A stretch of DNA of 13,383 bases from Verrucomicrobiota bacterium. Lineage in GTDB: Bacteria > Verrucomicrobiota > Verrucomicrobiia > Opitutales > Opitutaceae. The number at the start of each line of letters is the position of its first letter. Position 1 is the first letter of the stretch. The notes beneath the pieces are model-generated. The model was not told the origin of the DNA, searched no databases, and saw only the letters and a program-made list of their open reading frames with translations. The translations under genes and the position numbers were made by a program. Positions 92 through 13,323 of this stretch are shown here, piece by piece. The stretch covers positions 1 to 13,383 of the forward strand of contig JAEZDN010000105.1 of assembly GCA_023433275.1 (NCBI GenBank), given 5' to 3'.

Positions 92-1558
92 TCACTTCAG
101 CGCGCCGGCTCCACCGCCGCCGCCGGCCGGCGGGACCTCCTTCGCCAGGGCGATCTCTCCCTGACGGGAATAGTCGATCGCTTCCGCCAGGATGCGCGCG
201 GCTTCCTGCGGGGCGTGGAAACCCATCGAATTTTCGGCGGCGACGAAATCCAGTCGCCACTGGGCCTTGCGATGGAGGTCGCGGGCGGCCTTGAGCTGCT
301 CGTCGGTGGCGCCGGCCTTCTGCGCCGCGCCGATGGCGTGGATGAGCGCGACGGTCGCCTCCTCCGCGCGGGTGAGGAGCGCGGCATTCCGATTCTGCAT
401 GGTGAGCGCGCGCGCCATGATTTCCTTTTCCGGAATGCGGTGGCAGGTCTGGCAGGATTCGGCGACGTTCAACAGCGGGGAACGCACATGATGGTTGCTG
501 ACCTTGATGGCGCCCTCGCGCACGTAGGGCATGTGGCAGTCGGCGCAGGAAACGCCGCTGCGGGCGTGGATGCCCTGGCTCCACATCTCAAACTCGGGAT
601 GCTGCGCCTTCAGCATCTTCGCGCCACTCTCGGTGTGGGTCCAGTCGACGTGGCCGGTCTCGTTATAGTAGGCCTCCATCTGCTCGACCTTGAGGCCGTT
701 GTCCCACGGGTAGTTCACGAGCTTGTTCTTGCCCTCGAAGTTGTATTCGACGTGGCACTGCGCGCAGACCAGGGATCGCATCTCCTGGCGGGTGGCGAGC
801 AGGTTGGGCTCGTAGCTACCCTGGCGGCCGTCACGACGCCAGCGCTCGATGCTCGGGAGATGCGGCGTGGCCTCCTTGGACTCGGCCAGGGCCCTGATGC
901 CGTTGATGAATGCCGGGCGGCTCACGCGCAGGTTCATCGTCTCGGCGTCGTGGCAGTCTATGCATGACACCGGATGTGTCACCTTCTGGCGGGCCTCGGC
1001 AAACGGCAGCGGACTGATCACTTCAAAACCCTTTTGGATCTGCGCCTCGCGATGCTCACGCCCGCCGGGGATGCCGGCCGCAATGCCCGCCTCGATATAG
1101 GTGGGCAGCACCGAGGAATGGCAGTGCAGGCAGGCACCCGGCTGGTTGAAGCGGGTGACGCGTTCGGTCTCATCCTGGTCAGTGAGCATGTAGGCGTGGC
1201 CGCGCTCCTCGCGGTAATCGACGCCGAAGGGATAGCCCGCAAAGAGTGTACGGTAGAGGGGAAACTCATCGAGCCGCTGGAAGGCCTCGCTGCCGCCGTG
1301 GTTCGTGCGCTCGGTGTCCACGGTGCGCTTGTAGCTGTCGTATTGCCGCGGGTAGTTCTTTCCCCACAAGGCGGGATCCGTGGTGTTCTCGTCCACGTCC
1401 ACGACCCGGAAGACGTGCTGGGTCGCCTCGGCCTTTCGCGCCACGATGTTCTGATAGAGCATCAGGATCAGGAACGTGGCGCCGGCGGTGCCGGCGAGGA
1501 TCGCAATGAACGCCCAGGTGGCGAGGCCGTGCTGGCGGGAGGCGGAGGAGGTTTTCAT
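92..1558 (-). CDS. nrfA: Pentahaem cytochrome c nitrite reductase NrfA (ammonia-forming), CXXCH active-site variant
   Basis: 488 aa with an N-terminal signal/anchor helix. Five haem c motifs: CLHCH, CIDCH, CAQCH, CADCH, CQTCH. Long collinear resemblance to E. coli NrfA as I recall it (ERGHAY, CAQCHVEYNFEGKNK, KAQHPEFE, CADCHMP), so the catalytic Arg/Tyr/His and the Ca-site residues appear retained. Lies directly downstream of nrfH. Confidence 0.93.
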   Translation of the reverse strand: MKTSSASRQHGLATWAFIAILAGTAGATFLILMLYQNIVARKAEATQHVFRVVDVDENTTDPALWGKNYPRQYDSYKRTVDTERTNHGGSEAFQRLDEFPLYRTLFAGYPFGVDYREERGHAYMLTDQDETERVTRFNQPGACLHCHSSVLPTYIEAGIAAGIPGGREHREAQIQKGFEVISPLPFAEARQKVTHPVSCIDCHDAETMNLRVSRPAFINGIRALAESKEATPHLPSIERWRRDGRQGSYEPNLLATRQEMRSLVCAQCHVEYNFEGKNKLVNYPWDNGLKVEQMEAYYNETGHVDWTHTESGAKMLKAQHPEFEMWSQGIHARSGVSCADCHMPYVREGAIKVSNHHVRSPLLNVAESCQTCHRIPEKEIMARALTMQNRNAALLTRAEEATVALIHAIGAAQKAGATDEQLKAARDLHRKAQWRLDFVAAENSMGFHAPQEAARILAEAIDYSRQGEIALAKEVPPAGGGGGAGALK

Positions 1559-1645
1559 GACGGGAAAGACTGGTTGGTTTTCTTAGCTAAGAATGCACAC
1601 GAAGTGAGAGAAGGGGGCATCGACCCCTCGCTGCCGTTATCCCGG

Positions 1646-1708
1646 GCCGTGCGAAGGATCCAAGGGGAAGCCGCCACCCACGGCACCAGCTTGGATCCTT
1701 CGCACGGC
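1646..1708 (-). repeat. Perfect 19-bp inverted repeat (intercistronic RNA hairpin) in the nrfH-nrfA spacer
   Basis: 1646-1664 gccgtgcgaaggatccaag is the exact reverse complement of 1690-1708 cttggatccttcgcacggc, with a 25-nt loop. No U-run follows on either strand, so it is not a canonical intrinsic terminator. Confidence 0.8.
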
Positions 1709-1772
1709 TCAGGATGACGATGCAGGGGTCTGGTTTTCATTCGCGTCATTTTGTGTCCGTTCGCGGTTGAAT

Positions 1773-2249
1773 TCACTTCAGCGGACCGTGACCGACCTCG
1801 CGGTGGCAGTGCAGGCAGTCGAGCATCTTCTGCGGGTCGCCGGGGTGCGTGTTGATGCCGTCCACCAGGGCTTGGTGGCAGGTGACGCAGTTCTCCTGGA
1901 GCACCGCGATGTTCTTCTTTCGGATCATGATCGGCTCGTGGAAATCCTGCAGCGTGAAACCCTTCGAGTGCCAGAAGCCGTTCTCGGCCTTGCTGAGATA
2001 TTTCGGGATGAAGCTATGCGGCGTGTGGCAGTCGTTGCAGGTGGCGACCGCATGGTGCGGCCCCTTCTGCCAGCCATCGAACTGCTCGCGCATGATATGA
2101 CAATTCACGCACGCGGTCGGGTCGTTGGAGAAATACGACAGCCCGTGCGCGTAGGTGAAGGTGTAGCTGCCAAGACCCGCGAACAGCCCGGCCGTGGCCG
2201 TGATGGCCACCAACAGGAGCGTGCGCGTGCGCGAGGTGGGGATCTTCAT
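1773..2249 (-). CDS. nrfH: Tetrahaem cytochrome c quinol dehydrogenase NrfH (NapC/NirT family)
   Basis: 158 aa with one N-terminal TM helix. Four CXXCH motifs (CVNCH, CNDCH, CVTCH, CLHCH). Size and position immediately upstream of nrfA are typical of nrfHA operons. Confidence 0.9.
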
Positions 2250-2333: not shown

Positions 2334-2567
2334 TTATTCGCGCCAAAAATTCACCGCCCAAGCCCCGTCGTTACGACGCTCCATCGACGACGCGAACCCC
2401 TCGCTCTTGAGCAATTCAATGAGTGGCGCCGGCAGGAACGGCGCCACGATCGTCACCCCCTCTCCGTCTTCGAGCGCATCCACCCGCGCGCGAATGGCCG
2501 AAAAAGGCTCCTCGCCGCGCGCGAGCACGGCCCGGATGTCGAAGGATTTGAAGCGAATCGGTTTCAT
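2334..2567 (-). CDS. DUF2249-type small protein (TusA/SirA-like fold family often found next to NO/nitrite genes)
   Basis: 77 aa. The pattern FDIR..(G)EEPF..I...V..L..GE.V.IV.PF.P.PL...L...GF......R.DG.W.V.FWR matches my recollection of DUF2249. Not HMM-verified. Confidence 0.6.
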   Translation of the reverse strand: MKPIRFKSFDIRAVLARGEEPFSAIRARVDALEDGEGVTIVAPFLPAPLIELLKSEGFASSMERRNDGAWAVNFWRE

Positions 2568-2641: not shown

Positions 2642-4765
2642 TCACGGGCTCCAGACAAATCCCGCCTCGGGATCAAACGTTAGCACATGTTGGCGACGTT
2701 CCACCGCCGTCCAGGTTCCGGCCCACCGCCGGGAGGGAACGCCGGTGGCAGGCGGTTGCGACCATATCTCCACGCTCGCGCTCTGCGCGCCCGCCGCGAG
2801 GCGCACCCGCAGCTCGCCCACCGCCACCCCGTCGTCGGACAATCCCTTGGCCCGCACCGTGTGCGTCTCCACCCGCCCACCCGCCTCCACGCGCACCACC
2901 ACCGGTTGCCGACCCCGCGCCGCGGGCATCGCCCCGCGCATGTGCACCGGGCGCGTATCGTTGCCCGCGGCCGGCGCGACCGCCGTCGGCTCGAGCCGGT
3001 CGCCATAGGCGCGAAACGTAACAACAAACTCCGGCGCCTCCGGGGCGGGATTGCGAAAAGGTGCGTCGCTCAAACCCACCATGAGCGCCACCCCCACGCC
3101 CGCCACCGCCAGCGCCACCGACCAACCGAGAACGCGGTCACGGCCTGCGCGACTGGCCCGCCCGGGCGCGCCCGCGCCGGCGCGAAGCGAGGATGCCGCT
3201 GCCGCCAGCAAGTGGGGTCGCAACGGATCGAAATCCACATGCGCCACTCGCCGCGGGTCCGCTCGATTGGGGCGGAGCGCGGGCTCACGCGTGCCAGCCA
3301 GGCGCGCGGGCATCCAAATGTTGCCCTCCCGGCCAAAGGCTTCGCTCGAACCGCAACCGACAATGAGCACAGCGGCCGCGCCCTTCGTCATCAACCGCTC
3401 GATGAGCTTCGGCTCGACCCACCCCGCGCAGGGGACGGGCCGCACCGTGTAGCCGGGCAGGCGCCGGGCCCAGGCCACGTGGTCGAACAGCTCCCAGCCC
3501 CCGTCCCCTTGGGCACACACAAAGGCAATCGCGGGAGCCTCCCCGCGGGCCCGGGCGGTGAGAACCAATTCCTCGAGCTCCCGGCCGACGCGCCGCGCAT
3601 CGAACCAGGCCAGGCCAATTCCCTGCGTGTCGCAGGAGCCCGCACAAATGCCACAACCCACGCACCGGTCGGGATCAACCTGCGCTTGCGAGGGAAACGG
3701 CTTCCCGTCGGTTCGCGGCACCATCGTGATCGCGCCGAAGGGACAGTCGTGCGAGCAAAGCGTGCAGGCAAAGCACCTCGACACGTCCACCGCCGCCTGG
3801 AACGTCGCCCGCGGCCGCCGGCGCGCGAGCCACCACGGGATGGTGACCAAAACAATCATGCTCAGGCCGGCTGAGAGCCAGATCCCGGGTCCGCTCAGCC
3901 GCGCCGTGAGTTGCAACGGCCACAGAAACCACCAGTCCATCGAGAGCGCCGCCGGTTTCACGGCGAGTTGGGCGGGAGCCGCATTCGTGGCCGGCCAGAT
4001 GAGCGCCGCGACGATCACCGCGCCGGCCAGCCCGGCGATCAGACGCTTGTCGGGGAGCAGGTTCACCCGGCTCAGGCGCGCCAGATGCAGGGCCAGGCCG
4101 CCGGCGATGGCCAATGGCAGCGCCATGTGCAGGAAGAACACCACGAAAAACAGCAGCGAAGGCACGGTCTCATCCCGATTGAAGAGCGGCAGCATGGGCT
4201 CGCCGAACACGGGCAGCACGTCCACCGCCTTCATCGTGCCCGTGGCGACCAACTGGGCCCGCTCATCCCACACCAGCCAGTAACCGGTCCACCCGATGAA
4301 CCCGATGAGCGCGAGCATGGCGATCCCGCTCGCCCAAGCGAGCCAGCGCGAGCCGGCGAATTTCCGGGCGAACAGCATGCGCGCGGCGTGCATCAGCACG
4401 AGCAGCATGGTGAGGTCGGAGGAATAGCGATGCACGCTCCGCACGATCCCGCCGGGTGATCGCGCCCCCAGCCCTGCGAGCGACGACCACGCGGATTGCA
4501 CGCTGGCGGAATACCAGATGAGCATCAGGACGCCTGAGACCGTGGCCAGGAGCAGCATGGCGTTGGCGGCCGGCCCGAGCTGCGCCAGCGGGTTCACTGG
4601 CCGCGGCCACACGCGCTCGATCACCGTGTCGAGCCGCGCCCAGCCCGCCTCGCCCGCCGCCCACAGCCGCGCCGCCCGCACGGGCGGTGCCGGCGGCTCC
4701 GCCCCAGGCGCCGGACCTCCGCCGATGCTGTCAGCCAGCGCCTCGCAATCGGGCTCCGGATGCAT
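2642..4765 (-). CDS. Multidomain membrane redox protein: dihaem cytochrome b (bc1/b6 N-terminal type) + 2x[4Fe-4S] ferredoxin + MvhD/FlpD-like domain + TM helix + about 140-aa periplasmic domain of unknown function
   Basis: I call the start at ATG 4765 (MHPEPD...), giving 707 aa. The track ORF extends to 5278 only by running out of frame across the upstream SCO gene. Two H-x13-H pairs sit in TM helices (RSVHRYSSDLTMLLVLMHAARM and FFLHMALPLAIAGGLALHLARL), plus a WTGYWLVWDERA motif, as in cytochrome b. Ferredoxin motifs: CFACTLCSHDCP and CVGCGICAGSC. MvhD-like stretch: AFVCAQ...VPCAGWVEPKLIERLMTKGAAAVLIVGCGS...REGN. About 7 TM helices by eye. Confidence 0.75.
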   Translation of the reverse strand: MHPEPDCEALADSIGGGPAPGAEPPAPPVRAARLWAAGEAGWARLDTVIERVWPRPVNPLAQLGPAANAMLLLATVSGVLMLIWYSASVQSAWSSLAGLGARSPGGIVRSVHRYSSDLTMLLVLMHAARMLFARKFAGSRWLAWASGIAMLALIGFIGWTGYWLVWDERAQLVATGTMKAVDVLPVFGEPMLPLFNRDETVPSLLFFVVFFLHMALPLAIAGGLALHLARLSRVNLLPDKRLIAGLAGAVIVAALIWPATNAAPAQLAVKPAALSMDWWFLWPLQLTARLSGPGIWLSAGLSMIVLVTIPWWLARRRPRATFQAAVDVSRCFACTLCSHDCPFGAITMVPRTDGKPFPSQAQVDPDRCVGCGICAGSCDTQGIGLAWFDARRVGRELEELVLTARARGEAPAIAFVCAQGDGGWELFDHVAWARRLPGYTVRPVPCAGWVEPKLIERLMTKGAAAVLIVGCGSSEAFGREGNIWMPARLAGTREPALRPNRADPRRVAHVDFDPLRPHLLAAAASSLRAGAGAPGRASRAGRDRVLGWSVALAVAGVGVALMVGLSDAPFRNPAPEAPEFVVTFRAYGDRLEPTAVAPAAGNDTRPVHMRGAMPAARGRQPVVVRVEAGGRVETHTVRAKGLSDDGVAVGELRVRLAAGAQSASVEIWSQPPATGVPSRRWAGTWTAVERRQHVLTFDPEAGFVWSP

Positions 4766-4883
4766 GTGACCACTCACGCCCCGCCTCCCGCCCTTCCCGG
4801 ACCGGAGGGTTCTCGCGAGGCCGTTCCGCAAGCGGGGCTTCGCCGGGGCGCGGCCCGGCGGTCGACAGCATGCCGCGCGGGAT

Positions 4884-5843
4884 TCATTCGCGCAGGAGGT
4901 GCAGCAGGCCCTCGCGCAGCCAGGCCCGGTGGCGCGGGTCGAGCGTGAAGCGGAAGGCGATGTCGCCCTCGCGATCCAGCAGGAGGAACAGGTTGGCGTG
5001 GTTGAGCACGCCGGTCTCAGGATCACGCGTGACGGAAAACTGGAGACGCTTGAGCAGATCGCGCATCTCGTCGGGGCGCTCACCGTTGACGTAGCGAAAC
5101 TCGGGAAACTCCAGTCCCTGCGCCGTAGCCATGGCGTCCATGATTTCGGTGGTCTCGTATTCCGGGTTGAGCGAGAGCGCGACCACGCGCAGACCCGCGC
5201 GGTCGGCGGCGGGCAATTCGGCGAGCACGGCACGCAACTCCTTGAAGATCTCCGGACAGGCAGTGGAACAGGCCGCATACACGCCCGTCACGAGCACAAC
5301 CTGACCGCGCAGATCGGCGAGCCGGAAGGCCGTGCCCTTCTGGTCCACGAGCGGCTGGTCAGGCACGGCAAGTCGCACCCGGATGCGATCGCCGGGAAAC
5401 GGCGGCAGGACGTCCGCCGCGCGGTCGGCTTGCGCATACGCCACCAGCCCGGCCACCGCGGCCGCAACCGTCGCCACGCCAGCGGCGGCGGCACCGAGGT
5501 GGCGGAGCCATAGCGCCGGCGACCTGAGCTGCCTGAGCGTATCGCGCCAGAGCACGCCGGCCACGAGCACGACCATGACGGGCTCGAGCAACATGATGCT
5601 GACGGCGGCCCACGACATGCCGCCGGTGCGCGGGTCGCCCTGGTAACACCATTGTTGGAAATCCCGCACGAAGCCGCCCAGCGCGCCGTCACCCGTCGGC
5701 CCGAAGATCGTGAGCAGGAGAAACGCCTCGTAGGCCGCGAGCGCCGAACCGAGGAACACCAACAGACCCGGTCCGGTGAAGAAGCGCGTGCCGGCGGACG
5801 TGGCGGCCGGCGGGGCGTCGGGGGCGTGGGCGGGAATGAGCAT
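4884..5843 (-). CDS. SCO1/SenC-family thiol-disulfide/copper chaperone with an N-terminal three-TM membrane domain
   Basis: 319 aa. Thioredoxin-fold core carries CSTAC (CxxxC) and the downstream conserved His (VLNHANLFLLLDREGDI). Three hydrophobic helices fall within the first ~140 aa. ATG at 5843. Confidence 0.75.
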   Translation of the reverse strand: MLIPAHAPDAPPAATSAGTRFFTGPGLLVFLGSALAAYEAFLLLTIFGPTGDGALGGFVRDFQQWCYQGDPRTGGMSWAAVSIMLLEPVMVVLVAGVLWRDTLRQLRSPALWLRHLGAAAAGVATVAAAVAGLVAYAQADRAADVLPPFPGDRIRVRLAVPDQPLVDQKGTAFRLADLRGQVVLVTGVYAACSTACPEIFKELRAVLAELPAADRAGLRVVALSLNPEYETTEIMDAMATAQGLEFPEFRYVNGERPDEMRDLLKRLQFSVTRDPETGVLNHANLFLLLDREGDIAFRFTLDPRHRAWLREGLLHLLRE

Positions 5844-6033: not shown

Positions 6034-7758
6034 TCACCGCACGGGCCACACGTCGGCCAGCGCCTTCCAGTTGGCGAAGTAGTACACCGCGAAGCACGCG
6101 AGGAACACGAAGGTGAGCACGATCGTGCCCTTGGTGGCCGAGTGGTTGTCCGCCAGCGAACCCGCCTTCGTGCCGGCGAGCGCGGGCGGCATGCCCCAGT
6201 CGGCCATCGGGCGGCCATGGTTCTTCTCGCCGAAGAGGAGCGTGCCGACGCAGAGCAGCACGAAGGCGAGCAGGCCGAGGAAGGCCAGCACGCCGCCAAT
6301 GCCCAGCGCACCCAGCCAGAGATGGGCGGCCGGGCCGTAAACGCCCTGCGCATCGATGTCCCAACTGCGGCGCGAAACCCCCATCGAGCCCGCAAAGGAC
6401 ATGCCGAATGACAGCAGCACGATGCCGCCGCCGAAGATCCAGGGCTGGAGGCGTGCGAGCCCGCGCCAGATGAAGTCGCGCTGGAAGATCAGCGGGATGA
6501 CGTAGTAAGCCAGCGCCATGAAGGCCAGCGTGGTGCCGCCGACCACGGTGACGTGGAAGTGTCCCGGGATGCGCAGCGTGTTGTGCGCGATGATGTTGAT
6601 CTGCTGCGTGCCGAGCGTGACGCCCGTGATGCCGCCGAGGAAACCAAAGATGATCACCGAGAGGACGGTGCCCGAGAGAGCCGGGTTGCGCCACGGAAGG
6701 GCCACCACCCAACCGAAGAGACCGCGCGTGTAGCCCTTCTCGCGCATGGCGATCTCGACGCCGGCCGGCACGGTGAAACCGTGGACCATGGACGCGAGCA
6801 CCGCGAGATACATGGCGTAGGAGGTGTTCCAGATCTTCCAGGCCGAGCCGACGGCCGGGTCCACGAGCAGGTGGTGGGCCGACGCGATGTTGATGAAGAG
6901 AATGTAGAGCGCGAAGGCCGTGCGGCAGACCGCCTCGTTGACCGGGCGCGCGCCCAGGATGACGTTCGACAGCAGGTACCAGACCGCGACCATGGCGCAG
7001 ACATTGACCTGTTGCGACTGGTGACCGAGGCCCCACCAGATGATGCGATACCAGATCGGATCGGGCTGGCCGATCCAGCCCATCGAGTAGGCAAACGTCG
7101 GGATCATCACGATCGCGCCGTGCAGGAGGGTGACGACCGCGATGATGGCGGCGGCCAGCGCGCCGAAGGTGACGATCGGCATCGAGCCCTCGTAGGCACG
7201 GTCGCGCTTGGCCACGTAAAGGGTGGCGAAGAAGTTGAAGACGCCCACCAGCGTGCCCACGGCGACGAGGATGATGCCGAGGTAGAAGGCCGGGTGCGCC
7301 AGCAGCGGCAGGTAGGACGTCATCAGCACGTCGGCCTGGCCGGCGATGATGACCCAGTCCACCATCACGGCGCCGACCGCCATGAGGCCGAAGCCCACCC
7401 AGGCCACCTTGCGCGAGAACAGCCGCGCGTTGAGCGGCGTGGTGCAGGCGAAGTAGAGGATCGCGACCTCGAAGAAGAGGATCCAGAAGATGAGCATGTT
7501 GATGCCGTGAAAGGTCAGCACGCGGTAGAACCAGTCCACGGGCAGGAGGTGGACGGTTTGCCAGCGCGTGAGCGCGAGCAGCAGCGCGGCGATGCCGCCG
7601 AGCAGGAGGAAGACGATGCCGACGACGGCGTGCAGCTTGATGAAGCGCTGGGCGTCGAGGCAGACGCCGAGGCCGGTGGTGGCGCAGACGCGCTTCGGCG
7701 TGTCGGGGGCGGCCAGCGAGTGCGGACCGGCGGGCAGGGTGGCGGGGGCAGAGGTCAT
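6034..7758 (-). CDS. Heme-copper oxidase superfamily subunit I, B-family-like architecture, lacking the cross-link tyrosine (candidate nitric oxide reductase catalytic subunit)
   Basis: 574 aa, about 13 TM helices. All six canonical His are present: H84 (TFHG), H246 (WWGLGH), H295/H296 (SAHHLL), H400/H402 (PGHFH). The spacings 84-246-295-400 closely parallel the T. thermophilus ba3 numbering as I recall it (72-233-282-384). The position of the His-linked Tyr (GHPxVY) reads GHQSQQ, i.e. Gln250. Confidence 0.85.
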   Translation of the reverse strand: MTSAPATLPAGPHSLAAPDTPKRVCATTGLGVCLDAQRFIKLHAVVGIVFLLLGGIAALLLALTRWQTVHLLPVDWFYRVLTFHGINMLIFWILFFEVAILYFACTTPLNARLFSRKVAWVGFGLMAVGAVMVDWVIIAGQADVLMTSYLPLLAHPAFYLGIILVAVGTLVGVFNFFATLYVAKRDRAYEGSMPIVTFGALAAAIIAVVTLLHGAIVMIPTFAYSMGWIGQPDPIWYRIIWWGLGHQSQQVNVCAMVAVWYLLSNVILGARPVNEAVCRTAFALYILFINIASAHHLLVDPAVGSAWKIWNTSYAMYLAVLASMVHGFTVPAGVEIAMREKGYTRGLFGWVVALPWRNPALSGTVLSVIIFGFLGGITGVTLGTQQINIIAHNTLRIPGHFHVTVVGGTTLAFMALAYYVIPLIFQRDFIWRGLARLQPWIFGGGIVLLSFGMSFAGSMGVSRRSWDIDAQGVYGPAAHLWLGALGIGGVLAFLGLLAFVLLCVGTLLFGEKNHGRPMADWGMPPALAGTKAGSLADNHSATKGTIVLTFVFLACFAVYYFANWKALADVWPVR

Positions 7759-7781
7759 GGGGAGGCGGAGGGATCGCGGGG

Positions 7782-8333
7782 TTATTCGACGAAGATCTTG
7801 CCGGTCATGGCGTGGTGCCCGATGCCGCAGAATTCATTGCAGACGATGGTGAACTCGCCCTTCGAGGTGGGCGTGAGCGTGAGCACGTGGTCGTACCCGG
7901 GTACGGCCTGGAAGTTCATGTTGAGGGGCTGCAGGGAAAAACCGTGCTGCAGGTCGAGGGCGGAGAGATGGATGCGGTAGGTCTCGCCCAAGCGCAGACG
8001 CAGGGCCGGATACCACTGCCACATCCGTCCGATCAGGTAGGCGTCGCCGCCGGGGGGTGGCTCCACGATCGGCAGCTCCGCGGCGAAGGCGTTTCCCGTG
8101 GGATTGACGAACGTGCCGACGCGGTTGGACTCGACGAACTTCTCGGTGCGCGCGAGGAAGTCCGCGGGTGTGACCGCGTAGGCCTCGCCGGAGCTGTTCT
8201 GTTTACCGCGAAAATGCCAGTACGGCATCATCAGCGACATCACGAAGCACCAGAGGATGGCGACGCCGAGCCAGAGCTTTTCATGGCCGGCCGGCGCGTG
8301 GAACCAGGGAGAGGTGAGAGGGCGAAGGCTCAT
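7782..8333 (-). CDS. HCO subunit II with an intact CuA centre (single-TM, ba3-like)
   Basis: 183 aa, one N-terminal TM helix, cupredoxin domain. Complete CuA ligand set: H130 (DLQHGF) and C165-N-E-F-C169-G-I-G-H173-H-A-M176 (CxExCGxxHxxM). Ends 23 nt upstream of subunit I. Confidence 0.88.
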   Translation of the reverse strand: MSLRPLTSPWFHAPAGHEKLWLGVAILWCFVMSLMMPYWHFRGKQNSSGEAYAVTPADFLARTEKFVESNRVGTFVNPTGNAFAAELPIVEPPPGGDAYLIGRMWQWYPALRLRLGETYRIHLSALDLQHGFSLQPLNMNFQAVPGYDHVLTLTPTSKGEFTIVCNEFCGIGHHAMTGKIFVE

Positions 8334-8342
8334 GGCGGCGGT

Positions 8343-8492
8343 TCAGGGCAGTTGCGCCGGCTTGATGAACAGGAGTTCGATCCAGCCCCACGCGGTGTAG
8401 GACAGGAACGGAATGACGACGCCGAGGGCGAGGAGCAGCCAGGGGTTGTCCAGGAGCTTCTGCCAGGGGTGGATCTTGGGTTCGTTTTTCAT
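8343..8492 (-). CDS. 49-aa single-TM protein, positional analogue of ba3 oxidase subunit IIa (not in the supplied ORF track)
   Basis: My translation: MKNEPKIHPWQKLLDNPWLLLALGVVIPFLSYTAWGWIELLFIKPAQLP. Its ATG overlaps the TGA of the upstream gene (ATGA, 8489-8492). Its stop lies 9 nt before the subunit II ATG. One clear hydrophobic helix. The order small-II-I mirrors cbaD-cbaB-cbaA. Confidence 0.6.
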   Translation of the reverse strand: MKNEPKIHPWQKLLDNPWLLLALGVVIPFLSYTAWGWIELLFIKPAQLP

Positions 8493-9904
8493 GGTGCAGG
8501 GTAAGAGGAAGGAGCGCGCCACGTCGCGAGGCCGCGGAGCATGATCGCGAGGAAGAGCAGGCCGCCGATCACGGCCACGAGCCCCCCGAGGCCCATCACG
8601 CCGAGGCCCACGTATTCGCCGAGCGAGCGGACGTGCTGTTCGGCGCCGTATTGCTTGCGGGCCAGGCCGAACGCGCCGGCCAGCGCAAAGCCCAGTCCGA
8701 ACACCGCCTGCCCGCCGCCGAAGAGCGCGAGTTGCCAGCGGATGAGGCGATCGGACGCACCGGCGGCGCGGGGCGAGGCTTCCCGGCTGAAATCATAGGC
8801 CGCCGCCATGAGCGCGAGCGTCACCGCGCCGATCGCACAGTGGTAGTGGCCGGGGACCAGCGTGCTCGATCCGCGGATAAACGCGCCGAGCACGAACCCG
8901 AGCACCGTCAGGAGGGCACTCCCGGCGAAACCGACGAGACGCCAGCGCCCCTCCGCCGCGCGCTCCGCCCAGTGCAGCGCCACGTGCCTGATCCCGAGGC
9001 CGAGCACAATCAGCACCACGGGAAAGATCGTCCAACGCATGAGTTGGGTCGCGATCTCGGAATACGCCGGGCGTGATGTCCCGCCCCACGCCACGACGGG
9101 CATGATCAACTGCGGCAGCACCAGCGCGCAAAGGAGCCAGCGGATCGCGGCCGGCGAGACCACATTGCGACCTGACCAGCGTCGCAACAGCCAGAGCCAG
9201 AGCCCCAGCATGAGCGCGACGTTGCCGACCTGCATGACGTGTCCCCCGCCCCACGCCACCAGCTCGTAATAGCCGATGGCCGGCAGTCCGGGCAGCGTCG
9301 AGCGCCAGGCTGCGGTGAAGGTCGCCAACGCGATCAGGTGCGCCGCCGCCGAGGCGCGCAGGGCGACAAGTGAGTCATCGGACAACCGGGTCGAGGGGAG
9401 CGACGGCACCGCCAGCGCCCCCGCGAGATAAAGCCCGCTGCCGGCGAACCAGGCGACGAGGCCGGCGAGGAACACGGGGTGATCCACCACCGGCACATAG
9501 TTCGCGAGAATCGGCTGCGCGCCCGGCATCACCGCTCCCGCCAGCAGGCCGAGGATGCCAAATCCCGCCAGCGCGATCGAAGCGACGGTGAGGCCGCGCG
9601 GGACCCGCGAGCCCACGGCCCACGCGAGATAAGCCAGCGTGCCCGCCTGGAACCACACGACAATGGCCAGATCCACGTGCACGACGAGCGCGCGCTTGAA
9701 GAACAACGGGTCGGTGAACAACCAGCCCAGGAACGGCAGCCGCCCGACCACGAGCATCAGGGACAACAATCCCGCGAGCACGAGGCTGCCGATGCCGAAG
9801 GCAAACCAGCCTCGCGCCGCGCCGGGAAAATGACTGGAGGCCATCGCCGTCGTCGTCGGGACGAAACGCGGGCGAAGCGCGGGAGCGGCGGCCGGGGTGG
9901 GCAT
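8489..9904 (-). CDS. Divergent HCO subunit I paralogue retaining the haem ligands but lacking the helix-VII His-His CuB ligands
   Basis: 471 aa, about 12 TM helices. Block-wise similarity to the 574-aa subunit I: KRALVVHVDLAIVVW / YRVLTFHGINMLIFW; YVPVVDHPVFLAG / YLPLLAHPAFYLG; WGGGHVMQVGNV / WGLGHQSQQVNV; PGHYH..G.VTLALMAAAY / PGHFH..GGTTLAFMALAYY; FGGG...FAG.FGLARK / FGGG...FAGSMGVSRR. There is no HH dipeptide anywhere in the protein; the aligned position reads V271-A272. Confidence 0.75.
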   Translation of the reverse strand: MPTPAAAPALRPRFVPTTTAMASSHFPGAARGWFAFGIGSLVLAGLLSLMLVVGRLPFLGWLFTDPLFFKRALVVHVDLAIVVWFQAGTLAYLAWAVGSRVPRGLTVASIALAGFGILGLLAGAVMPGAQPILANYVPVVDHPVFLAGLVAWFAGSGLYLAGALAVPSLPSTRLSDDSLVALRASAAAHLIALATFTAAWRSTLPGLPAIGYYELVAWGGGHVMQVGNVALMLGLWLWLLRRWSGRNVVSPAAIRWLLCALVLPQLIMPVVAWGGTSRPAYSEIATQLMRWTIFPVVLIVLGLGIRHVALHWAERAAEGRWRLVGFAGSALLTVLGFVLGAFIRGSSTLVPGHYHCAIGAVTLALMAAAYDFSREASPRAAGASDRLIRWQLALFGGGQAVFGLGFALAGAFGLARKQYGAEQHVRSLGEYVGLGVMGLGGLVAVIGGLLFLAIMLRGLATWRAPSSYPAP

Positions 9905-9939: not shown

Positions 9940-9953
9940 TTGACGCGCATCAA
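9940..9953 (-). promoter_or_regulatory. FNR/CRP-family (Dnr/NnrR-type) box, perfect TTGATgcgcGTCAA when read on the minus strand
   Basis: Plus strand reads TTGACgcgcATCAA, with the gcc flank conserved on the minus strand. It overlaps the azurin stop codon. The centre at 9946.5 is 29.5 nt from a TAAAAA hexamer (9917-9912, minus strand). Predicted TSS is about 9905, adjacent to the ATG at 9904. Confidence 0.65.
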
Positions 9954-10468
9954 GGCTTCGGCGCGACGATCAGTTTGCCCTTCATCAACGCGGCATGGCC
10001 GGGAAATGTGCAGATGAACGGATACTCGCCGGGGGCATCCGGCGCGCTGAACTCGACGGTGTCGCTCTCATTGGGTCCGAGCAGCTTCGTGTGCGCGATG
10101 ATCCTGCCCGCGTCCGCGGGCACGTACTCCGGCGCGCGCGCCGCGGCGGCCTGCGCGAGCGCCAGCACCCCTCCATCGGGCATCGGCACCAGGAGCACCC
10201 AATTGTGTCCCATCGCCTGCTTGGGCATGCGACCAATGTTCTTCAGGGTGACTCGGATCTTCTCGCCGACGTGGGCGCGAATCTCGGTCACATTGAACTT
10301 CATGGTGTCGTCCGCCGTGATCACGACGGCCTTGACGCCGTCGACCGGGGCCGCGGCCGGGGTTGCAGCGACCGGAGCGGTGGCGGGAGCTTCGGATTTT
10401 CCGCAACCGGCGAGCAACAAGGCGGTGCCGGCCACGAGCGGAAGGATGAGGGTGGGCATGGATTTCAT
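9950..10468 (-). CDS. azu: Azurin-type blue copper protein, lipoprotein-anchored
   Basis: Near-collinear with P. aeruginosa azurin as I recall it: MKFN, MGHNWVL, RIIAHTKLLGP..S.TVEF, FICTFPGHAALMKGKL. Type-1 Cu ligands His/Cys/His/Met are all present. Lipobox LLAGC after a signal peptide, followed by an Ala/Pro-rich linker. I prefer the ATG at 10468 (MKSMPTL) over the GTG at 10477. Confidence 0.9.
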   Translation of the reverse strand: MKSMPTLILPLVAGTALLLAGCGKSEAPATAPVAATPAAAPVDGVKAVVITADDTMKFNVTEIRAHVGEKIRVTLKNIGRMPKQAMGHNWVLLVPMPDGGVLALAQAAAARAPEYVPADAGRIIAHTKLLGPNESDTVEFSAPDAPGEYPFICTFPGHAALMKGKLIVAPKP

Positions 10469-10503: not shown

Positions 10504-10517
10504 TTGATGCGGGTCAA
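10504..10517 (-). promoter_or_regulatory. FNR/CRP-family (Dnr/NnrR-type) box TTGATgcggGTCAA with a -10-like TAGGGT
   Basis: Perfect 10/10 match, with flanks gcc...gc shared with the box at 11601. It overlaps the stop codon of the upstream gene. The centre at 10510.5 is 29.5 nt from TAGGGT (10481-10476, minus strand). Predicted TSS is about 10469, adjacent to the azurin ATG at 10468. Confidence 0.65.
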
Positions 10518-10945
10518 GCTGCCGGCGTTTCCTTGCAGCAGGCCGACTGGCAGACTCCGTCGAGCAGCCGGATCTCGCGGTGGGCGACGCCGCGCATCCG
10601 CTCGCACAATTCCCCGACCTGCGCGACGCGATCCGCCGCGCTCAGCGCGGGATCGGCGACCTGGGCCCAGATGAGCGCCTCGAGCAGCGCTTGCTCCAGC
10701 GTGGCAAAGTACGGGCGCAGCGGGTTGCAATGACACCGCTTCGGCAACGAATCGGGGTTCGCGGCAACCGTCCCATCCGGGGGTTGCGCTGCCAGCACGT
10801 CGTCGAGCGTGTGATCGAACAGGTGGACCAGGATGTCGGGACTCGCCAGCGGCGTGGCCGGTTTCTCCAGGCGTAGCAGGGCCTCCCACCGCGCGCGGAT
10901 CTCTGGCCGCCGCGGTTCGAGGAGTGGGCGCAGGGAACTGCTCAT
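10514..10945 (-). CDS. Hypothetical cytoplasmic protein with CHC and CxxxCC motifs
   Basis: 143 aa, no signal peptide or TM helix. Cysteines sit in KRCHCNP and GVCQSACC. Helical, Arg/Leu-rich N-terminus (RPEIRARWEALLRLE). 27 nt downstream of the preceding gene. I do not confidently recognise a family. Confidence 0.5.
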   Translation of the reverse strand: MSSSLRPLLEPRRPEIRARWEALLRLEKPATPLASPDILVHLFDHTLDDVLAAQPPDGTVAANPDSLPKRCHCNPLRPYFATLEQALLEALIWAQVADPALSAADRVAQVGELCERMRGVAHREIRLLDGVCQSACCKETPAA

Positions 10946-11662: not shown

Positions 11663-12448
11663 TTACCGCCCGCTGGTCACGACGGCTTGCGCCGCCTCGT
11701 CGAGGCCGCCGCGCAGGCCGTTGCGCTGGTGGACGATCTCGCCCTCGGGGTTGAGAATGGTGATGAGGTTGGAGTGCGCGAACATGCCGTCGGCCTCCTG
11801 CTTGAACTTCACGCCCAGGAGCGCGGCGAGTTCGCGCACGGCATCGTCATCACCGTGCAACAGGGTCCATTGGTCATCGAGCTGGCGTTCCGCCCGGAAT
11901 TTCGCGAGCGCGGCCGGCGTGTCGCGCGCGACGTCGAACGTCACCAGCACGAGCGCGGCGCGCGTGCGGATCTCCGCGGGCAGTTTCGCCTGGATGGCAT
12001 GCATGTCGGTCAGCAACAGCGGGCACGCGTAGCCGCAGGAGGCGAAGAACATCGTCAGCACCACCGGCCGGCCGCGCAGGGAGCTGAGAGCGAAGGGCCG
12101 GCCGCGGTCATCGGTGAAACCGACGTCGAGTTGATAGAGCGATTCGGCGCTGAAATCCCCGCTCTTCAATGCGGGATTCTCGAGCTCGGCGCAGCAGGCG
12201 TCCGGCTTTTTGTCGGCGGTTTCCTCGACCGCGCAGCAGGCGGCGGGCTTGGGCGCGTCCCCCTGGGCGCAGCAAGCGGCCGTCCCGGACTTGTCCGCGC
12301 AGCACGCTGCCTGGTCCGTTTTACCGTCGGAGCAGCCGCAGGCCGACTGCGGCTTGGCGTCCGGCGTCGCGCAGCAGGCGGCTGGCTTTTCATGCGCCAT
12401 CAGGCCGGCGGACAGGAGGAGGGAAAGCAGGGCGAGACTCGTTTTCAT
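11663..12448 (-). CDS. SCO1/SenC-family copper chaperone with a secreted N-terminal (A)CCA-repeat cysteine-rich tail
   Basis: 261 aa with a signal peptide (MKTSLALLSLLLSAGLMA|HEK). 12 Cys in about 65 residues: five ACCA units plus one CGC. SCO core carries FFASCGYACP (CxxxC) and the conserved His (MFAHSNLITILNPEGEI). Its ATG overlaps the stop of the upstream FGE-like gene (ATGA). Confidence 0.85.
   Translation of the reverse strand: MKTSLALLSLLLSAGLMAHEKPAACCATPDAKPQSACGCSDGKTDQAACCADKSGTAACCAQGDAPKPAACCAVEETADKKPDACCAELENPALKSGDFSAESLYQLDVGFTDDRGRPFALSSLRGRPVVLTMFFASCGYACPLLLTDMHAIQAKLPAEIRTRAALVLVTFDVARDTPAALAKFRAERQLDDQWTLLHGDDDAVRELAALLGVKFKQEADGMFAHSNLITILNPEGEIVHQRNGLRGGLDEAAQAVVTSGR
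12185..12391 (-). repeat. Degenerate in-frame tandem repeat encoding the (A)CCA cysteine pairs
   Basis: The plus strand shows gcgcagca(g/a/c)g... recurring at about 12188, 12231, 12266, 12298 and 12369, with a related gagcagccgcagg at about 12330. Spacing is roughly 33-43 nt. Confidence 0.7.
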
Positions 12449-13323
12449 GGAATCGATTGGGCGCAGCGGAAGCCGAGCGAGGTGGTGGTGTTGTTGGCCT
12501 TGAGGGAGGAGCGCAGCGCCGAGCGCATGTAGGCGGCATAGTCGCTCGTCTCCTTGCTGCCCGCGGCGCCGGCGCCGCAGAACAGGTCGCGCTCGAGGCC
12601 GCTGTCGGCGCGGGATTCGCCGGTGACCATGGCGGTGTTGAAGTCATCGACCCATTCCCACACGAGGCCGTGCAGGCCGCGCGCGCCGTGGAGGTTGGTC
12701 CGGGCCGTGGCGACCGAGGGCAGCACGTCTGGCACCGGCCGCGCGAGCCAGGCGTAAAGATCGCGGTTGAACTCCGGTTCGTCCTTCCCCGCCGGCGTCG
12801 TGTAACCGGCCGCGGCGGCGAGTTCCCATTCGGCGGTGCTCGGCAGGCGCTTGCCGGCCCAGCGCGCGTAGGCGCGCGCCGCAAACCACGACACGCGCAC
12901 GACCGGGGCGTCGGGTGGGGCGCCGGCGCCGGGCTCGAGGTCGTCGGACCAGTGCTCGAGGTAGGAGGCGTCGGCAAAGAGCCGGCTGACGGCGGAGCGG
13001 CGCCATTTCGGGTTTTCGCGCACGAAGGCGAGGAACTCGGCGTTCGTCACCGGGAGGACATCCAGTTCGAAGGCCGGCACGGGCACTTGCTCGGGATCGC
13101 GCAGGGACCGTTGCACCGGTTCATAAATGCCCGCCGGAATCACGACCGACCCGCGAAGGGATGAATCGTCGATTCCGGCGCCGGGATGCTGGATATCCGC
13201 TCCGCCGCCCAAGGCGCCGAGCAGGAACAGCCCCAGCCCGACCCATGCGCGATTGAAACCGGAGGGGCGCCCGGCGGGCGGGCGACAGGGGGCCGGGATG
13301 GTGCGTGGCGCGGTGGCAAACAT
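12445..13323 (-). CDS. Formylglycine-generating-enzyme (FGE/SUMF1) domain protein, NirV-like, with an N-terminal signal-anchor
   Basis: FGE-sulfatase family hallmarks: VTNAEFLAFV, VSWFAARAYARWAGKRLPSTAEWELAA, GLVWEWVDD, and C-terminal TSLGFRCAQ. Hydrophobic segment AWVGLGLFLLGALGG. I prefer the ATG at 13323 (MFATAP, 292 aa) over the TTG at 13371. The upstream promoter is probably outside the window. Confidence 0.8.
   Translation of the reverse strand: MFATAPRTIPAPCRPPAGRPSGFNRAWVGLGLFLLGALGGGADIQHPGAGIDDSSLRGSVVIPAGIYEPVQRSLRDPEQVPVPAFELDVLPVTNAEFLAFVRENPKWRRSAVSRLFADASYLEHWSDDLEPGAGAPPDAPVVRVSWFAARAYARWAGKRLPSTAEWELAAAAGYTTPAGKDEPEFNRDLYAWLARPVPDVLPSVATARTNLHGARGLHGLVWEWVDDFNTAMVTGESRADSGLERDLFCGAGAAGSKETSDYAAYMRSALRSSLKANNTTTSLGFRCAQSIP

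What the first reader, a model, noticed from the sequence alone, without database searches (positions are those of the whole stretch)
6034..8492. B-family-like CuA heme-copper enzyme without the cross-link tyrosine: candidate non-canonical nitric oxide reductase
- **Active site:** Subunit I keeps all six canonical His with ba3-like spacing. The active-site stretch reads WWGLGHQSQQVN instead of GHP(E/I)VY, so the His-Tyr cofactor needed for O2 reduction cannot form at the A/B-family position. I also see no C-family-style Tyr six residues before the HH pair.
- **Other subunits:** Subunit II has a complete CuA site (H130, C165, C169, H173, M176) and a single TM helix. It is preceded by a small one-helix ORF, as in cbaDBA.
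- **Known context:** HCO relatives with CuA and modified active sites have been proposed as NORs: the eNOR/bNOR/sNOR/gNOR/nNOR groups from comparative genomics, the CuA-NOR of Bacillus azotoformans, and the norSY-senC clusters of ammonia oxidisers.
- **Gene neighbourhood:** nrfHA, DUF2249, SCO genes, azurin and Dnr/NnrR-type boxes all fit that reading.
- **Open question:** I cannot place the Gln-rich HQSQQ signature in a named family from memory, so it may be a distinct lineage.
Basis: partly seen in the sequence, partly recalled or inferred. Interest (0 to 1): 0.72.

Follow-up and report, generated by a model that had tools for sequence, protein, structure and literature searches.

The report
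eNOR-type nitric oxide reductase operon

Summary
Subunit I (6034-7758, minus strand, 574 aa) keeps all six canonical His. It reads G-H246-Q-S-Q-Q250-V-N where ba3 oxidase reads G-H233-P-I-V-Y237, so the cross-link Tyr is replaced by Gln. Subunit II has a complete CuA site, and a conserved one-helix subunit precedes it.

Gln at the Tyr position is the published diagnostic of the eNOR family, and the Rhodothermus marinus eNOR reduces NO but not O2. A genome scan for the motif W-x2-G-H-x2-Q-Q-x-N returned 115 homologous subunit I genes. They come from taxa reported to carry eNOR, including Accumulibacter, Magnetospirillum, Gallionella, haloarchaea, Anaerolineales and Thermus. In an NJ tree the query sits inside this clade (98% bootstrap), apart from B-family oxidases. 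Only Gln247 is specific to Opitutae.

A near-identical contig shows nirK five genes upstream, and nrfHA lies downstream. An Opitutales isolate with NirK, eNOR and NrfAH reduces nitrite to N2O.

Verdict: a new member of a known kind, of modest interest. Two neighbours deserve follow-up: a translationally coupled HCO-like paralog that lacks the CuB His pair, and a cytochrome b/Fe-S fusion conserved beside most eNORs.

The parts
6034..7758 (-). eNOR subunit I (574 aa). Haem ligands are H84/H402 (low-spin) and H400 (high-spin). The three His of the CuB/FeB site are H246, H295 and H296. Q250 replaces the cross-link Tyr. K-channel-like residues are Y261, S323, H326 and T329.
   Evidence: Pfam COX1 209.6 bits. 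PDB alignment to ba3. Column table against ba3 numbering. NJ tree places it in the QQ (eNOR) clade at 98% bootstrap. AF2 pLDDT 81.4, best fold matches ba3 with TM about 0.75.
7782..8333 (-). eNOR subunit II (183 aa): one TM helix plus a cupredoxin domain with CuA ligands H130, C165, C169, H173 and M176. E18 is equivalent to the ba3 subunit II Glu at the K-channel entrance.
   Evidence: Pfam COX2 and TIGR02866. Residue positions. CuA ligands and E18 are invariant (H173 in 89 of 90) in 90 family members.
8343..8492 (-). Small one-helix third subunit (49 aa from ATG 8492; motif LLDNPWLLL), analogous in position to ba3 subunit IIa/CbaD.
   Evidence: Homologous small ORFs precede subunit II in Defluviimonas, Thermus and Thermomicrobium. 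tblastn hits in 43 eNOR loci. Called as a 49-aa gene on identical contigs.
8489..9904 (-). HCO subunit-I-like paralog (471 aa, 12 TM). It keeps both haem-ligand positions (H76, H353, H355) and one CuB-type His (H222) but lacks the HH pair. Its stop codon overlaps the start codon of the small subunit gene. Role unknown.
   Evidence: Pfam COX1 28 bits, below cutoff. hhalign against the eNOR profile: probability 98.9%, E 2.7e-17. Invariant residues. AF2 pLDDT 84.7, with HCO subunit I folds as best matches. Found next to eNOR in 12 of 115 loci.
9940..9953 (.). FNR/Dnr-type box TTGACGCGCATCAA (1 mismatch), centred about 42 nt upstream of the paralog start codon. Probable anaerobic/NO-responsive promoter element for paralog-small-II-I.
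   Evidence: 6 boxes against 1.44 expected, 0 of 200 shuffles reach 6. Its function is inferred.
9950..10459 (-). Azurin-type lipoprotein (169 aa, lipobox LLAGC), a candidate periplasmic electron donor to CuA. A second FNR-type box lies at 10504-10517, upstream of it.
   Evidence: TIGR02695 azurin 94.8 bits, below its 105.1 cutoff; Pfam Copper-bind above cutoff. Gene call. Box.
4884..5843 (-). Membrane-anchored SCO1/SenC copper chaperone (319 aa), likely for CuA (and CuB) assembly.
   Evidence: Pfam SCO1-SenC. An SCO gene lies downstream of subunit I in 39 of 49 eNOR loci with enough sequence.
2642..4765 (-). Cytochrome b (PetB-N-like) + 2x[4Fe-4S] + FlpD/MvhD-like fusion protein (707 aa). The true start is ATG 4765, not the ORF start at 5278. 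It is a conserved eNOR neighbour and possibly an electron-supply module.
   Evidence: Pfam/NCBIfam. Start from gene calls. Homolog downstream of eNOR subunit I in 40 of 49 loci, and the Fer4/FlpD part is covered in 44 and 41 of 68 loci.
2334..2567 (-). DUF2249 protein (77 aa), with an FNR-type box at 2613-2626 upstream.
   Evidence: Pfam DUF2249 53 bits. Box.
92..2249 (-). nrfH (1773-2249) and nrfA (92-1558): ammonifying cytochrome c nitrite reductase.
   Evidence: Pfam Cytochrom_C552 454.8 bits and Cytochrom_NNT.
11663..13323 (-). Second SCO (11663-12448) and an FGE-sulfatase-fold gene (12445-13323). These two, DUF6448 (10973-11566) and an unknown 143-aa gene (10514-10945) separate nirK, just beyond the window, from the azurin-eNOR genes.
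   Evidence: Pfam. On contig L128, which is 99.97% identical to the window, a NirK-cytochrome c fusion (TIGR02376 356 bits, cutoff 296) lies immediately upstream. That nirK clusters often carry an FGE-fold gene (nirV) is my recollection only.

Best explanation
The three genes small subunit, subunit II and subunit I (8492 to 6034, minus strand) encode an eNOR-family nitric oxide reductase of an Opitutaceae (Verrucomicrobiota) bacterium.

Proposed mechanism (inferred):
- A periplasmic one-electron carrier, most plausibly the azurin encoded two genes upstream, reduces CuA in subunit II.
- Electrons pass to the low-spin haem (H84/H402) and then to the binuclear centre. That centre is formed by the high-spin haem (H400) and a metal held by H246, H295 and H296.
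- There, two NO are reduced with two electrons and two protons to N2O and water.
- The redox-active His-Tyr cofactor is replaced by Gln250, flanked by invariant Gln249 and Asn252. Four-electron O2 reduction is therefore not expected.
- A retained K-channel-like path (subunit II E18; subunit I Y261, S323, H326, T329) could take protons from the cytoplasm, which would make the reaction electrogenic.

The enzyme sits in one co-oriented cluster: nirK, FGE-fold gene, SCO, DUF6448, azurin, HCO-like paralog, eNOR, SCO, cyt b/Fe-S fusion, DUF2249, nrfHA. FNR/Dnr-type boxes precede several of these genes. It therefore most likely removes the NO made by NirK during nitrite respiration, with N2O as the product.

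Shown here: family membership, ligand sets, synteny. Inferred: the electron donor, the identity of the metal (Cu or Fe), the haem type, energy coupling and regulation.
For: - Tyr237 to Gln by gap-free alignment to ba3.
- Gln at this site is the published eNOR diagnostic (Table A4 of PMC8756737).
- R. marinus eNOR reduces NO and not O2 (PMC11214002).
Of these, 115 are subunit I homologs 40-86% identical to the query. They include Ca. Accumulibacter, Magnetospirillum, Gallionella, Haloarculaceae and Anaerolineales, all named as eNOR hosts in the literature.
- The family-wide signature H-x-[SA]-Q-Q-[VI]-N...HH...S..H..[TSA]...H-x-[HK] fits the query exactly.
- The His-to-Lys variant of the low-spin haem ligand, described for 'some eNORs', occurs inside the same clade.
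- NJ tree: QQ clade 98/100, B-family 83/100, query nested in the QQ clade.
- CuA ligands and the channel Glu are invariant in 90 subunit II sequences.
- nirK is in the same cluster on a 99.97%-identical contig.
- FNR-type boxes are enriched.
- An Opitutales isolate with NirK, eNorAB and NrfAH converts 4 mM nitrite to 1.5-1.7 mM N2O without ammonium formation (PMC13274419).
Against: - No activity data exist for this protein or for any Verrucomicrobial eNOR.
- I could not obtain the sequence of the one biochemically characterised enzyme (R. marinus), so identity to it is unknown. Membership rests on the diagnostic residue and on clustering with taxa the literature lists as eNOR hosts.
- The tree is NJ with Kimura distances, not maximum likelihood, and it lacks sNOR, bNOR, gNOR and nNOR references.
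- No ctaA or cyoE gene lies within about 20 kb, whereas 'many' eNOR operons have one, so the haem type is open.
- NrfA itself can reduce NO, so the physiological need for this enzyme is inferred.
- The azurin match is below the NCBIfam equivalog cutoff.
Confidence: 0.85

Rival explanations
1. It belongs to a distinct, so far unnamed lineage of CuA-type NO reductases defined by the Gln-rich HQSQQ signature.
For: Gln247 immediately after the CuB His is found only in the Verrucomicrobial subclade: 120 of 120 closest homologs have it, whereas most other members have Ser, Pro, Gly or Met there.
Against: Every other signature position is identical to the family consensus. The query is 50-66% identical to Myxococcales, Planctomycetota, Gemmatimonadales and proteobacterial members and is nested within the 98%-supported QQ clade. 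An Opitutales homolog has already been classed as eNOR with the published HMMs.
Confidence: 0.04
2. It is still an oxygen reductase of the B-family or K-family type that uses a compensating Tyr or another residue elsewhere in the active-site cavity.
For: The closest solved structures are ba3-type O2 reductases. The nearest non-QQ relatives (P0243, P0245, P0247, P0263; Asgard, Thermoproteota) keep Tyr at the cross-link position in an otherwise eNOR-like motif, H-[TS]-[AL]-Q-Y-[VI]-N. Several Tyr are invariant in the family (Y261, Y285, Y314).
Against: Gln250 occupies the cross-link position in all sampled members. There is no Tyr six residues before the HH pair. The B-family forms a separate clade. 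The characterised eNOR could not reduce O2 with a range of donors. nirK is in the cluster.
Confidence: 0.05
3. It is an sNOR/bNOR-type, gNOR-type or nNOR-type enzyme (the other CuA-related NOR groups the reader listed).
For: It is B-family related, lacks the Tyr, and has SCO/SenC genes adjacent, as in the norSY-senC clusters.
Against: [quoted passage not shown] It also gives an Asp replacing a CuB His plus a CuA-less subunit II for gNOR, and a cNOR-like Glu site with His/Met low-spin haem ligation for nNOR. The query has Gln250, three His, a full CuA site and His/His ligation.
Confidence: 0.01
4. It is an eNOR-family protein whose physiological reaction here is not respiratory NO reduction, for example pure NO detoxification for the NrfA pathway or reduction of another small oxidant.
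For: nrfHA is in the same cluster. Turnover of the characterised eNOR is low, 0.68 NO per second. Extra, unexplained redox partners (HCO-like paralog, cyt b/Fe-S fusion) are encoded alongside.
Against: nirK, the NO source, is in the cluster. The Opitutales isolate with the same gene set grows by nitrite respiration to N2O with a doubled yield. A K-channel-like proton path is conserved.
Confidence: 0.05

Closest known systems
eNOR family of haem-copper NO reductases (Hemp & Gennis 2008; Murali et al. 2024; characterised enzyme from Rhodothermus marinus; 'cytochrome a1-like' protein of Magnetospirillum magnetotacticum)
   Same: Gln at the cross-link Tyr position. Three His at the B-metal site. 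CuA subunit II. K-channel-like residues. Small-II-I gene order. The query clusters with Accumulibacter, Magnetospirillum, Gallionella, haloarchaeal and Thermus members at 41-52% identity.
   Different: Gln247 instead of Ser/Pro/Gly next to the CuB His (Opitutae-specific). No ctaA or cyoE gene nearby. An extra HCO-like paralog is translationally coupled upstream. No direct comparison with the R. marinus sequence was possible.
eNorAB of Verruconatronum alginivorum (Opitutales; PMC13274419)
   Same: Same bacterial order. Same gene complement (NirK, eNOR, NrfAH). That organism respires nitrite to N2O.
   Different: In the window the genes form one contiguous cluster, whereas the isolate's locus tags are dispersed.
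Thermus thermophilus cytochrome ba3 (B-family O2 reductase, PDB 1EHK/1XME)
   Same: Best structural and sequence match among solved structures (E about 1e-43; TM about 0.75). 13 TM helices. Same six His. CuA subunit II. Small third subunit. Equivalents of S309, T315, Y248 and II-E15 are retained.
   Different: Y237 to Gln, V236 to Gln, W239 to Asn, T312 to His, Y244 to Val. Only about 25% identity. Separate clade.
Tyr-containing sister sequences (probably the 'K family' O2 reductases said to cluster with eNOR; bioRxiv 10.1101/592808)
   Same: 36-43% identical to the query. They share Q249, N252, H326 and Y261 equivalents.
   Different: They keep Tyr at the cross-link position. They come from Asgard and Thermoproteota archaea. 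The assignment to 'K family' is my inference.
sNOR (norSY-senC of ammonia oxidisers) and bNOR (CuA-NOR of Bacillus azotoformans)
   Same: B-family-derived, CuA-containing, Tyr-less NORs with SCO/SenC genes nearby.
   Different: They carry Asn, not Gln, at the Tyr position and are separate families in the published tree.

Membership tests
eNOR | HCO subunit I fold with the six canonical His (two haems plus a three-His metal site) | tested here: met
   H84, H246, H295, H296, H400, H402. Pfam COX1 209.6 bits. AF2 model matches ba3.
eNOR | Gln at the position of the cross-linked active-site Tyr (the diagnostic used by Hemp & Gennis 2008 and PMC8756737) | tested here: met
   Q250 aligns with ba3 Y237 without gaps in both HMMER and MAFFT alignments. 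Literature.
eNOR | CuA-containing cupredoxin subunit II | tested here: met
   H130, C165, C169, H173, M176, conserved in 90 family members.
eNOR | Conserved K-channel-like proton path resembling that of the B-family | tested here: met
   Equivalents of ba3 Y248, S309 and T315 are retained (Y261, S323, T329), T312 is His family-wide, and subunit II E18 is invariant. Function not tested.
eNOR | Phylogenetic clustering with recognised eNOR sequences rather than with B-family oxidases | tested here: met
   The QQ clade (85 sequences, including Accumulibacter, Haloarculaceae, Natrarchaeobius, Thermus, Anaerolineales and Gallionella) has 98/100 NJ bootstrap and the query is nested inside it. The B-family is separate at 83/100. 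References are proxies identified from taxa named in the literature, not curated accessions.
eNOR | Sequence relationship to the biochemically characterised R. marinus enzyme | not testable with these tools
   R. marinus did not appear in the plasmid search, the 120 scanned loci, or a search seeded with a Bacteroidota eNOR.
eNOR | Haem As in both haem sites; CtaA or haem O synthase genes in many operons | tested here: inconclusive
   No ctaA or cyoE in the window or in the 20-kb contig L128. cyoE does follow the genes in Defluviimonas and Thermomicrobium. The literature says 'many', not all.
eNOR | NO reductase activity without O2 reductase activity | not testable with these tools
   Requires biochemistry. 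Shown only for R. marinus eNOR.
B-family O2 reductase (ba3 type) | His-Tyr cross-link cofactor (GHP-x-V-Y) | tested here: not met
   The motif is GHQSQQ; Tyr is replaced by Gln250.
B-family O2 reductase (ba3 type) | Clusters within the B-family clade | tested here: not met
   Mean distance to B-family sequences is 1.81 against 0.72 to the QQ clade. The clades are separate.
sNOR / bNOR | Asn at the Tyr position | tested here: not met
   Gln250 is present instead of Asn (Table A4; for bNOR having the same active site as sNOR).
gNOR | Asp replacing one active-site His; subunit II without CuA ligands | tested here: not met
   All three His are present and the CuA site is complete (features).
nNOR | cNOR-like active-site Glu; low-spin haem ligated by His/Met | tested here: not met
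   The low-spin ligands are H84/H402 and the active-site stretch is QQ type (features). The Glu column itself was not mapped.
C-family / cNOR / qNOR | Helix VII Tyr (C-family) or FeB Glu; cytochrome c or quinol-binding partner instead of CuA | tested here: not met
   I289 lies six residues before the HH pair. The partner is a CuA subunit. The best structural matches are ba3, not cbb3 or NOR.

The most novel reading that the evidence does not exclude
The eNOR of this and many other organisms may not work as the simple CuA/subunit I enzyme described so far. It may be part of a larger conserved module. A cytochrome b + 2x[4Fe-4S] + MvhD-like fusion protein is encoded downstream of eNOR in about 80% of loci. 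In Verrucomicrobia, Myxococcales and some Proteobacteria there is also a previously undescribed two-haem HCO-like paralog that has lost the CuB His pair. These proteins could supply electrons (for example from quinol or a cytoplasmic donor), or they could sense or bind NO. That would define a new eNOR respiratory architecture and a new CuB-less branch of the haem-copper superfamily.
Probability: 0.3. Interest if true: 0.55.

Novelty: new member of a known kind. Interest (0 to 1): 0.3.

Why it matters
- **Annotation and N2O budgets.** eNOR enzymes are routinely mis-annotated: every named close homolog here is called a cbb3-type, b(o/a)3-type or generic cytochrome c oxidase subunit I. Nitrite-to-N2O capacity in abundant soil and freshwater Opitutaceae is therefore missed in gene-based N2O budgets.
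- **Competing nitrite fates.** This cluster puts NirK, eNOR and NrfHA side by side. That makes it a compact example of an organism able to send nitrite either to N2O or to ammonium.
- **A testable lead.** The conserved cyt b/Fe-S fusion and the CuB-less HCO paralog are concrete leads on how eNOR is supplied with electrons. The main text of the family paper (PMC11214002) does not mention either protein in connection with eNOR.

Tried and rejected
1. **R. marinus eNOR sequence.** I tried to obtain it for a direct comparison and failed each time. It was also not among the 120 best hits of a search seeded with a Terrimonas eNOR or the clusters looked up by name.
2. **sNOR references.** I hoped the plasmid hits from Deinococcus, Geobacillus, Caballeronia and Natrialba would serve. 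All four are Tyr-containing B-family oxidases, so I used them as the B-family outgroup instead. No sNOR, bNOR, gNOR or nNOR sequences entered the tree.
3. **Family libraries.** NCBIfam has no eNOR model; the best matches (CtaD and others) are far below cutoff.
4. **Promoter and terminator scan.** The sigma-70 and terminator scan gave nothing above the shuffled expectation.
5. **Supplements.** The supplementary datasets of the PNAS paper, which hold the family alignments and residues, are not held. The review PMC8780969 does not mention eNOR.
6. **Literature on the paralog.** A search for HCO homologs lacking CuB ligands found nothing relevant.
7. **ORF start.** The 878-aa reading of ORF 2642-5278 was rejected. 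It overlaps the SCO gene by 395 nt, and gene calls on identical contigs start at ATG 4765.


Full report
**1. What is there.**

All genes in the window lie on the minus strand. The finding covers three of them:
- a small ORF at 8343-8492 (49 aa from the ATG at 8492);
- a 183-aa subunit II at 7782-8333;
- a 574-aa subunit I at 6034-7758.

The gaps between them are 9 and 23 nt. Subunit I matches Pfam COX1 at 209.6 bits and subunit II matches COX2. NCBIfam has no specific model; its oxidase equivalogs score far below cutoff.

**2. Check of the observation.**

phmmer against all PDB chains gives B-family oxidases as best matches: 7deg_A at E 7e-46 and T. thermophilus ba3 at about 1e-43. The alignment places query G-H-Q-S-Q-Q on ba3 G-H233-P-I-V-Y237 without a gap. 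An independent MAFFT alignment of 128 sequences gives the same mapping:

| ba3 residue | Query residue |
|---|---|
| H72 | H84 |
| H233 | H246 |
| V236 | Q249 |
| Y237 | Q250 |
| W239 | N252 |
| H282/H283 | H295/H296 |
| H384/H386 | H400/H402 |

The residue six before the HH pair is Ile289, so there is no C-family-style Tyr. NrfA, NrfH, DUF2249, two SCO proteins and an azurin-type lipoprotein are confirmed. FNR/Dnr-type boxes are enriched: 6 against 1.44 expected, with none of 200 shuffles reaching 6. Four sit in intergenic DNA just upstream of genes, at 9940, 10504, 11601 and 2613.

**3. Which family.**

- PMC8756737 identifies eNOR subunit I by a conserved Gln at the site where O2 reductases have the cross-link Tyr. 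Its Table A4 lists Y for oxygen reductases, E for cNOR/qNOR, N for sNOR and Q for eNOR.
- Murali et al. 2024 (PMC11214002) purified the eNOR of Rhodothermus marinus. It reduces NO (0.68 per second at 25 C) but not O2, and it carries haem As.
- They report that eNORs have CuA subunits and a K-channel-like proton path, and that some use His/Lys ligation of the low-spin haem.
- They list Ca. Accumulibacter, Gallionellaceae, Magnetospirillum magnetotacticum and hypersaline organisms as hosts.

I tested this with sequence data. A scan of one genome per prokaryotic species for the DNA equivalent of W-x2-G-H-x2-Q-Q-x-N reached its 120-locus limit. Of these, 115 encode subunit I homologs 40-86% identical to the query. 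They come from Opitutaceae, Myxococcales, Planctomycetota, Gemmatimonadales, Acidobacteriota, Nitrospinota, Nitrospirae, Bacteroidota, Anaerolineales, many Proteobacteria and Haloarculaceae. Identities to named eNOR hosts are:
- Accumulibacter, 52%;
- Magnetospirillum, 52%;
- Gallionella, 45%;
- Haloarculaceae, 41%.

Plasmid-borne copies in Defluviimonas (49%), Thermomicrobium (46%) and T. thermophilus (44.5%) have the same small-II-I arrangement. A Thermus sequence is included in the published eNOR alignment.

Across all these sequences the active-site columns read H, H-x-[SA]-Q-Q-[VI]-N, [VI], Y, [SN], HH, S, H, [TSA], H-x-[HK]. The query fits at every position. The His-to-Lys variant occurs in Thermus, a Nitrospirae MAG and nearly all of a Bacteroidota/Aquificae subclade, matching the published description. 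Only Gln247 is specific to the Verrucomicrobial branch: all 120 closest homologs have GHQSQQVN.

In an NJ tree of 123 sequences and 551 columns with 100 bootstraps, the Gln-Gln clade has 98% support and contains the query. The B-family has 83% support and a two-Tyr family has 100%, and both are separate. The two-Tyr family is presumably the 'J' family of bioRxiv 10.1101/592808. Four archaeal sequences with H-[TS]-[AL]-Q-Y-[VI]-N keep the Tyr and are 36-43% identical to the query. They are probably the 'K family' oxidases said to cluster with eNOR. The sNOR, bNOR, gNOR and nNOR defining residues are not met.

An Opitutales isolate, Verruconatronum alginivorum, has already been reported to carry eNorAB, identified with the published HMMs, together with NirK and NrfAH. 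It converts 4 mM nitrite to 1.5-1.7 mM N2O.

**4. Subunits and model.**

In 90 subunit II sequences from eNOR loci the CuA ligands are invariant (H173 in 89 of 90). The Glu equivalent to ba3 II-E15 at the K-channel entrance (E18 here) is also invariant. The small ORF shares the motif LLDNP(W/F)LLL with the small ORFs of Thermus, Thermomicrobium and Defluviimonas. An AlphaFold2 model of subunit I (pLDDT 81.4, pTM 0.85) has 13 long helices and matches ba3 best, with TM about 0.75.

**5. Context.**

A metagenomic contig 99.97% identical to the window (L128) extends it. Immediately beyond coordinate 13383 lies a NirK-cytochrome c fusion (TIGR02376 356 bits, cutoff 296), preceded by a YwiC-like gene.

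The co-oriented cluster is therefore: nirK, FGE-fold gene, SCO, DUF6448, a 143-aa unknown, azurin, HCO-like paralog, small subunit, subunit II, subunit I, SCO(TM), cyt b/Fe-S fusion, DUF2249, nrfH, nrfA.

The NO source is thus encoded five genes upstream of the eNOR genes.

**6. How it most likely works.**

- Reduced azurin (or a cytochrome c) donates to CuA.
- Electrons pass through the low-spin haem to the high-spin haem and three-His metal centre.
- There, two NO are reduced to N2O.
- Gln250, Gln249 and Asn252 replace the Tyr237, Val236 and Trp239 environment of ba3. The fourth electron needed for O2 reduction is therefore unavailable.
- The retained channel residues allow proton uptake from the cytoplasm, so the step may be electrogenic.

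The ligand sets, family membership and synteny are shown here. The donor, the B-site metal, the haem type, energy coupling and regulation by an FNR/Dnr-type factor are inferred.

**7. Things outside the finding.**

(a) Directly upstream lies a 471-aa gene (8489-9904). Its stop codon overlaps the small subunit's ATG.
- It is a divergent HCO subunit I homolog: Pfam COX1 only 28 bits, but hhalign against the eNOR profile gives probability 98.9% and E 2.7e-17, and its AF2 model (pLDDT 84.7) matches HCO folds.
- It keeps the haem-ligand His residues and one CuB-type His in a W-G-G-G-H-x-x-Q motif.
- It has T-x-LMRWT in place of the HH pair, and this is invariant in 39 homologs.
- Relatives lie next to eNOR in 12 of 115 loci from three phyla.
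- I found no description of it.

(b) The gene downstream of the second SCO (2642-4765, 707 aa) is a fusion of cytochrome b, 2x[4Fe-4S] and an FlpD/MvhD-like domain. A homolog follows eNOR subunit I in 40 of 49 loci with enough downstream sequence, and an SCO gene does so in 39 of 49. This partnership is not mentioned in the main text of the PNAS paper.

**8. Verdict.**

The enzyme belongs to the named and biochemically validated eNOR family, which has already been reported in the same bacterial order. It is a new member of a known kind, and the finding itself is of modest interest. The two conserved, unexplained partner proteins are the more promising leads.

The main limits of this analysis are three. 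There was no direct comparison with the R. marinus sequence. The tree is a distance tree without sNOR, bNOR, gNOR or nNOR references. There is no biochemistry for any Verrucomicrobial eNOR.

Noticed in passing
window 8489-9904 (-): A second, divergent HCO subunit-I-like gene (471 aa, 12 predicted TM helices) is translationally coupled to the eNOR small-subunit gene. It keeps the haem-ligand His residues and one CuB-type His (WGGGH-x2-Q) but has T-x-LMRWT instead of the HH pair. The family is conserved, occurs beside eNOR in Verrucomicrobia, Myxococcales and some Proteobacteria, and I found no description of it.
   Followed up: yes
window 2642-4765 (-); loci L004-L123: A fusion of cytochrome b (PetB-N-like), 2x[4Fe-4S] and an FlpD/MvhD-like domain (707 aa) is a conserved eNOR neighbour. 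A homolog lies downstream of subunit I in 40 of 49 loci with at least 3.5 kb of downstream sequence, usually after an SCO gene. It may be an electron-supply module. The mechanical ORF start at 5278 is wrong; the real start is ATG 4765.
   Followed up: partly
L128:5022-6533 (just beyond window coordinate 13383): A NirK-cytochrome c fusion (TIGR02376 356 bits) lies directly upstream of the FGE-fold gene on a contig 99.97% identical to the window. The cluster therefore encodes both the NO producer and the NO reductase. A YwiC-like gene precedes nirK, and a YwiC-like gene also lies near the Thermus eNOR (L002).
   Followed up: partly
window 9940-9953, 10504-10517, 11601-11614, 2613-2626: Four near-consensus FNR/Dnr-type boxes (TTGAT-N4-ATCAA, 1-2 mismatches) sit just upstream of the paralog, azurin, DUF6448 and DUF2249 genes. 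In total there are 6 in the window against 1.44 expected by chance.
   Followed up: partly
L002 (Thermus plasmid), L012, L056 and proteins P0416-P0535: A large eNOR subclade (Bacteroidota, Aquificae, Nitrospirae, Thermus) has Lys in place of the second His of the helix X H-x-H motif (GHFK). This matches the His/Lys low-spin haem ligation mentioned for 'some eNORs'. The window enzyme has the His/His form.
   Followed up: partly
proteins P0243, P0245, P0247, P0263 (Hodarchaeales, Thermoproteota): The nearest relatives outside the Gln-Gln clade keep Tyr at the cross-link position within an otherwise eNOR-like motif (H-[TS]-[AL]-Q-Y-[VI]-N). This looks like the oxygen-reducing sister group from which eNOR arose by a Tyr-to-Gln change.
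   Followed up: partly
window 10514-10945 and 10973-11566 (-): A 143-aa protein with no family match and a secreted DUF6448 protein lie between the nirK-side SCO gene and the azurin gene. An FNR-type box precedes DUF6448. Their role in the nitrite/NO cluster is unknown.
   Followed up: no
L001 (Defluviimonas plasmid NZ_CP156080.1) and L002 (Thermus plasmid): eNOR clusters occur on plasmids or megaplasmids. In Defluviimonas the order is small-II-I, haem O synthase, SCO, cyt b, hypothetical, hemerythrin. In Thermus the genes sit beside cytochrome P460, a multicopper oxidase, an Rrf2 regulator and a DUF542 protein. This suggests horizontal mobility of the module.
   Followed up: no
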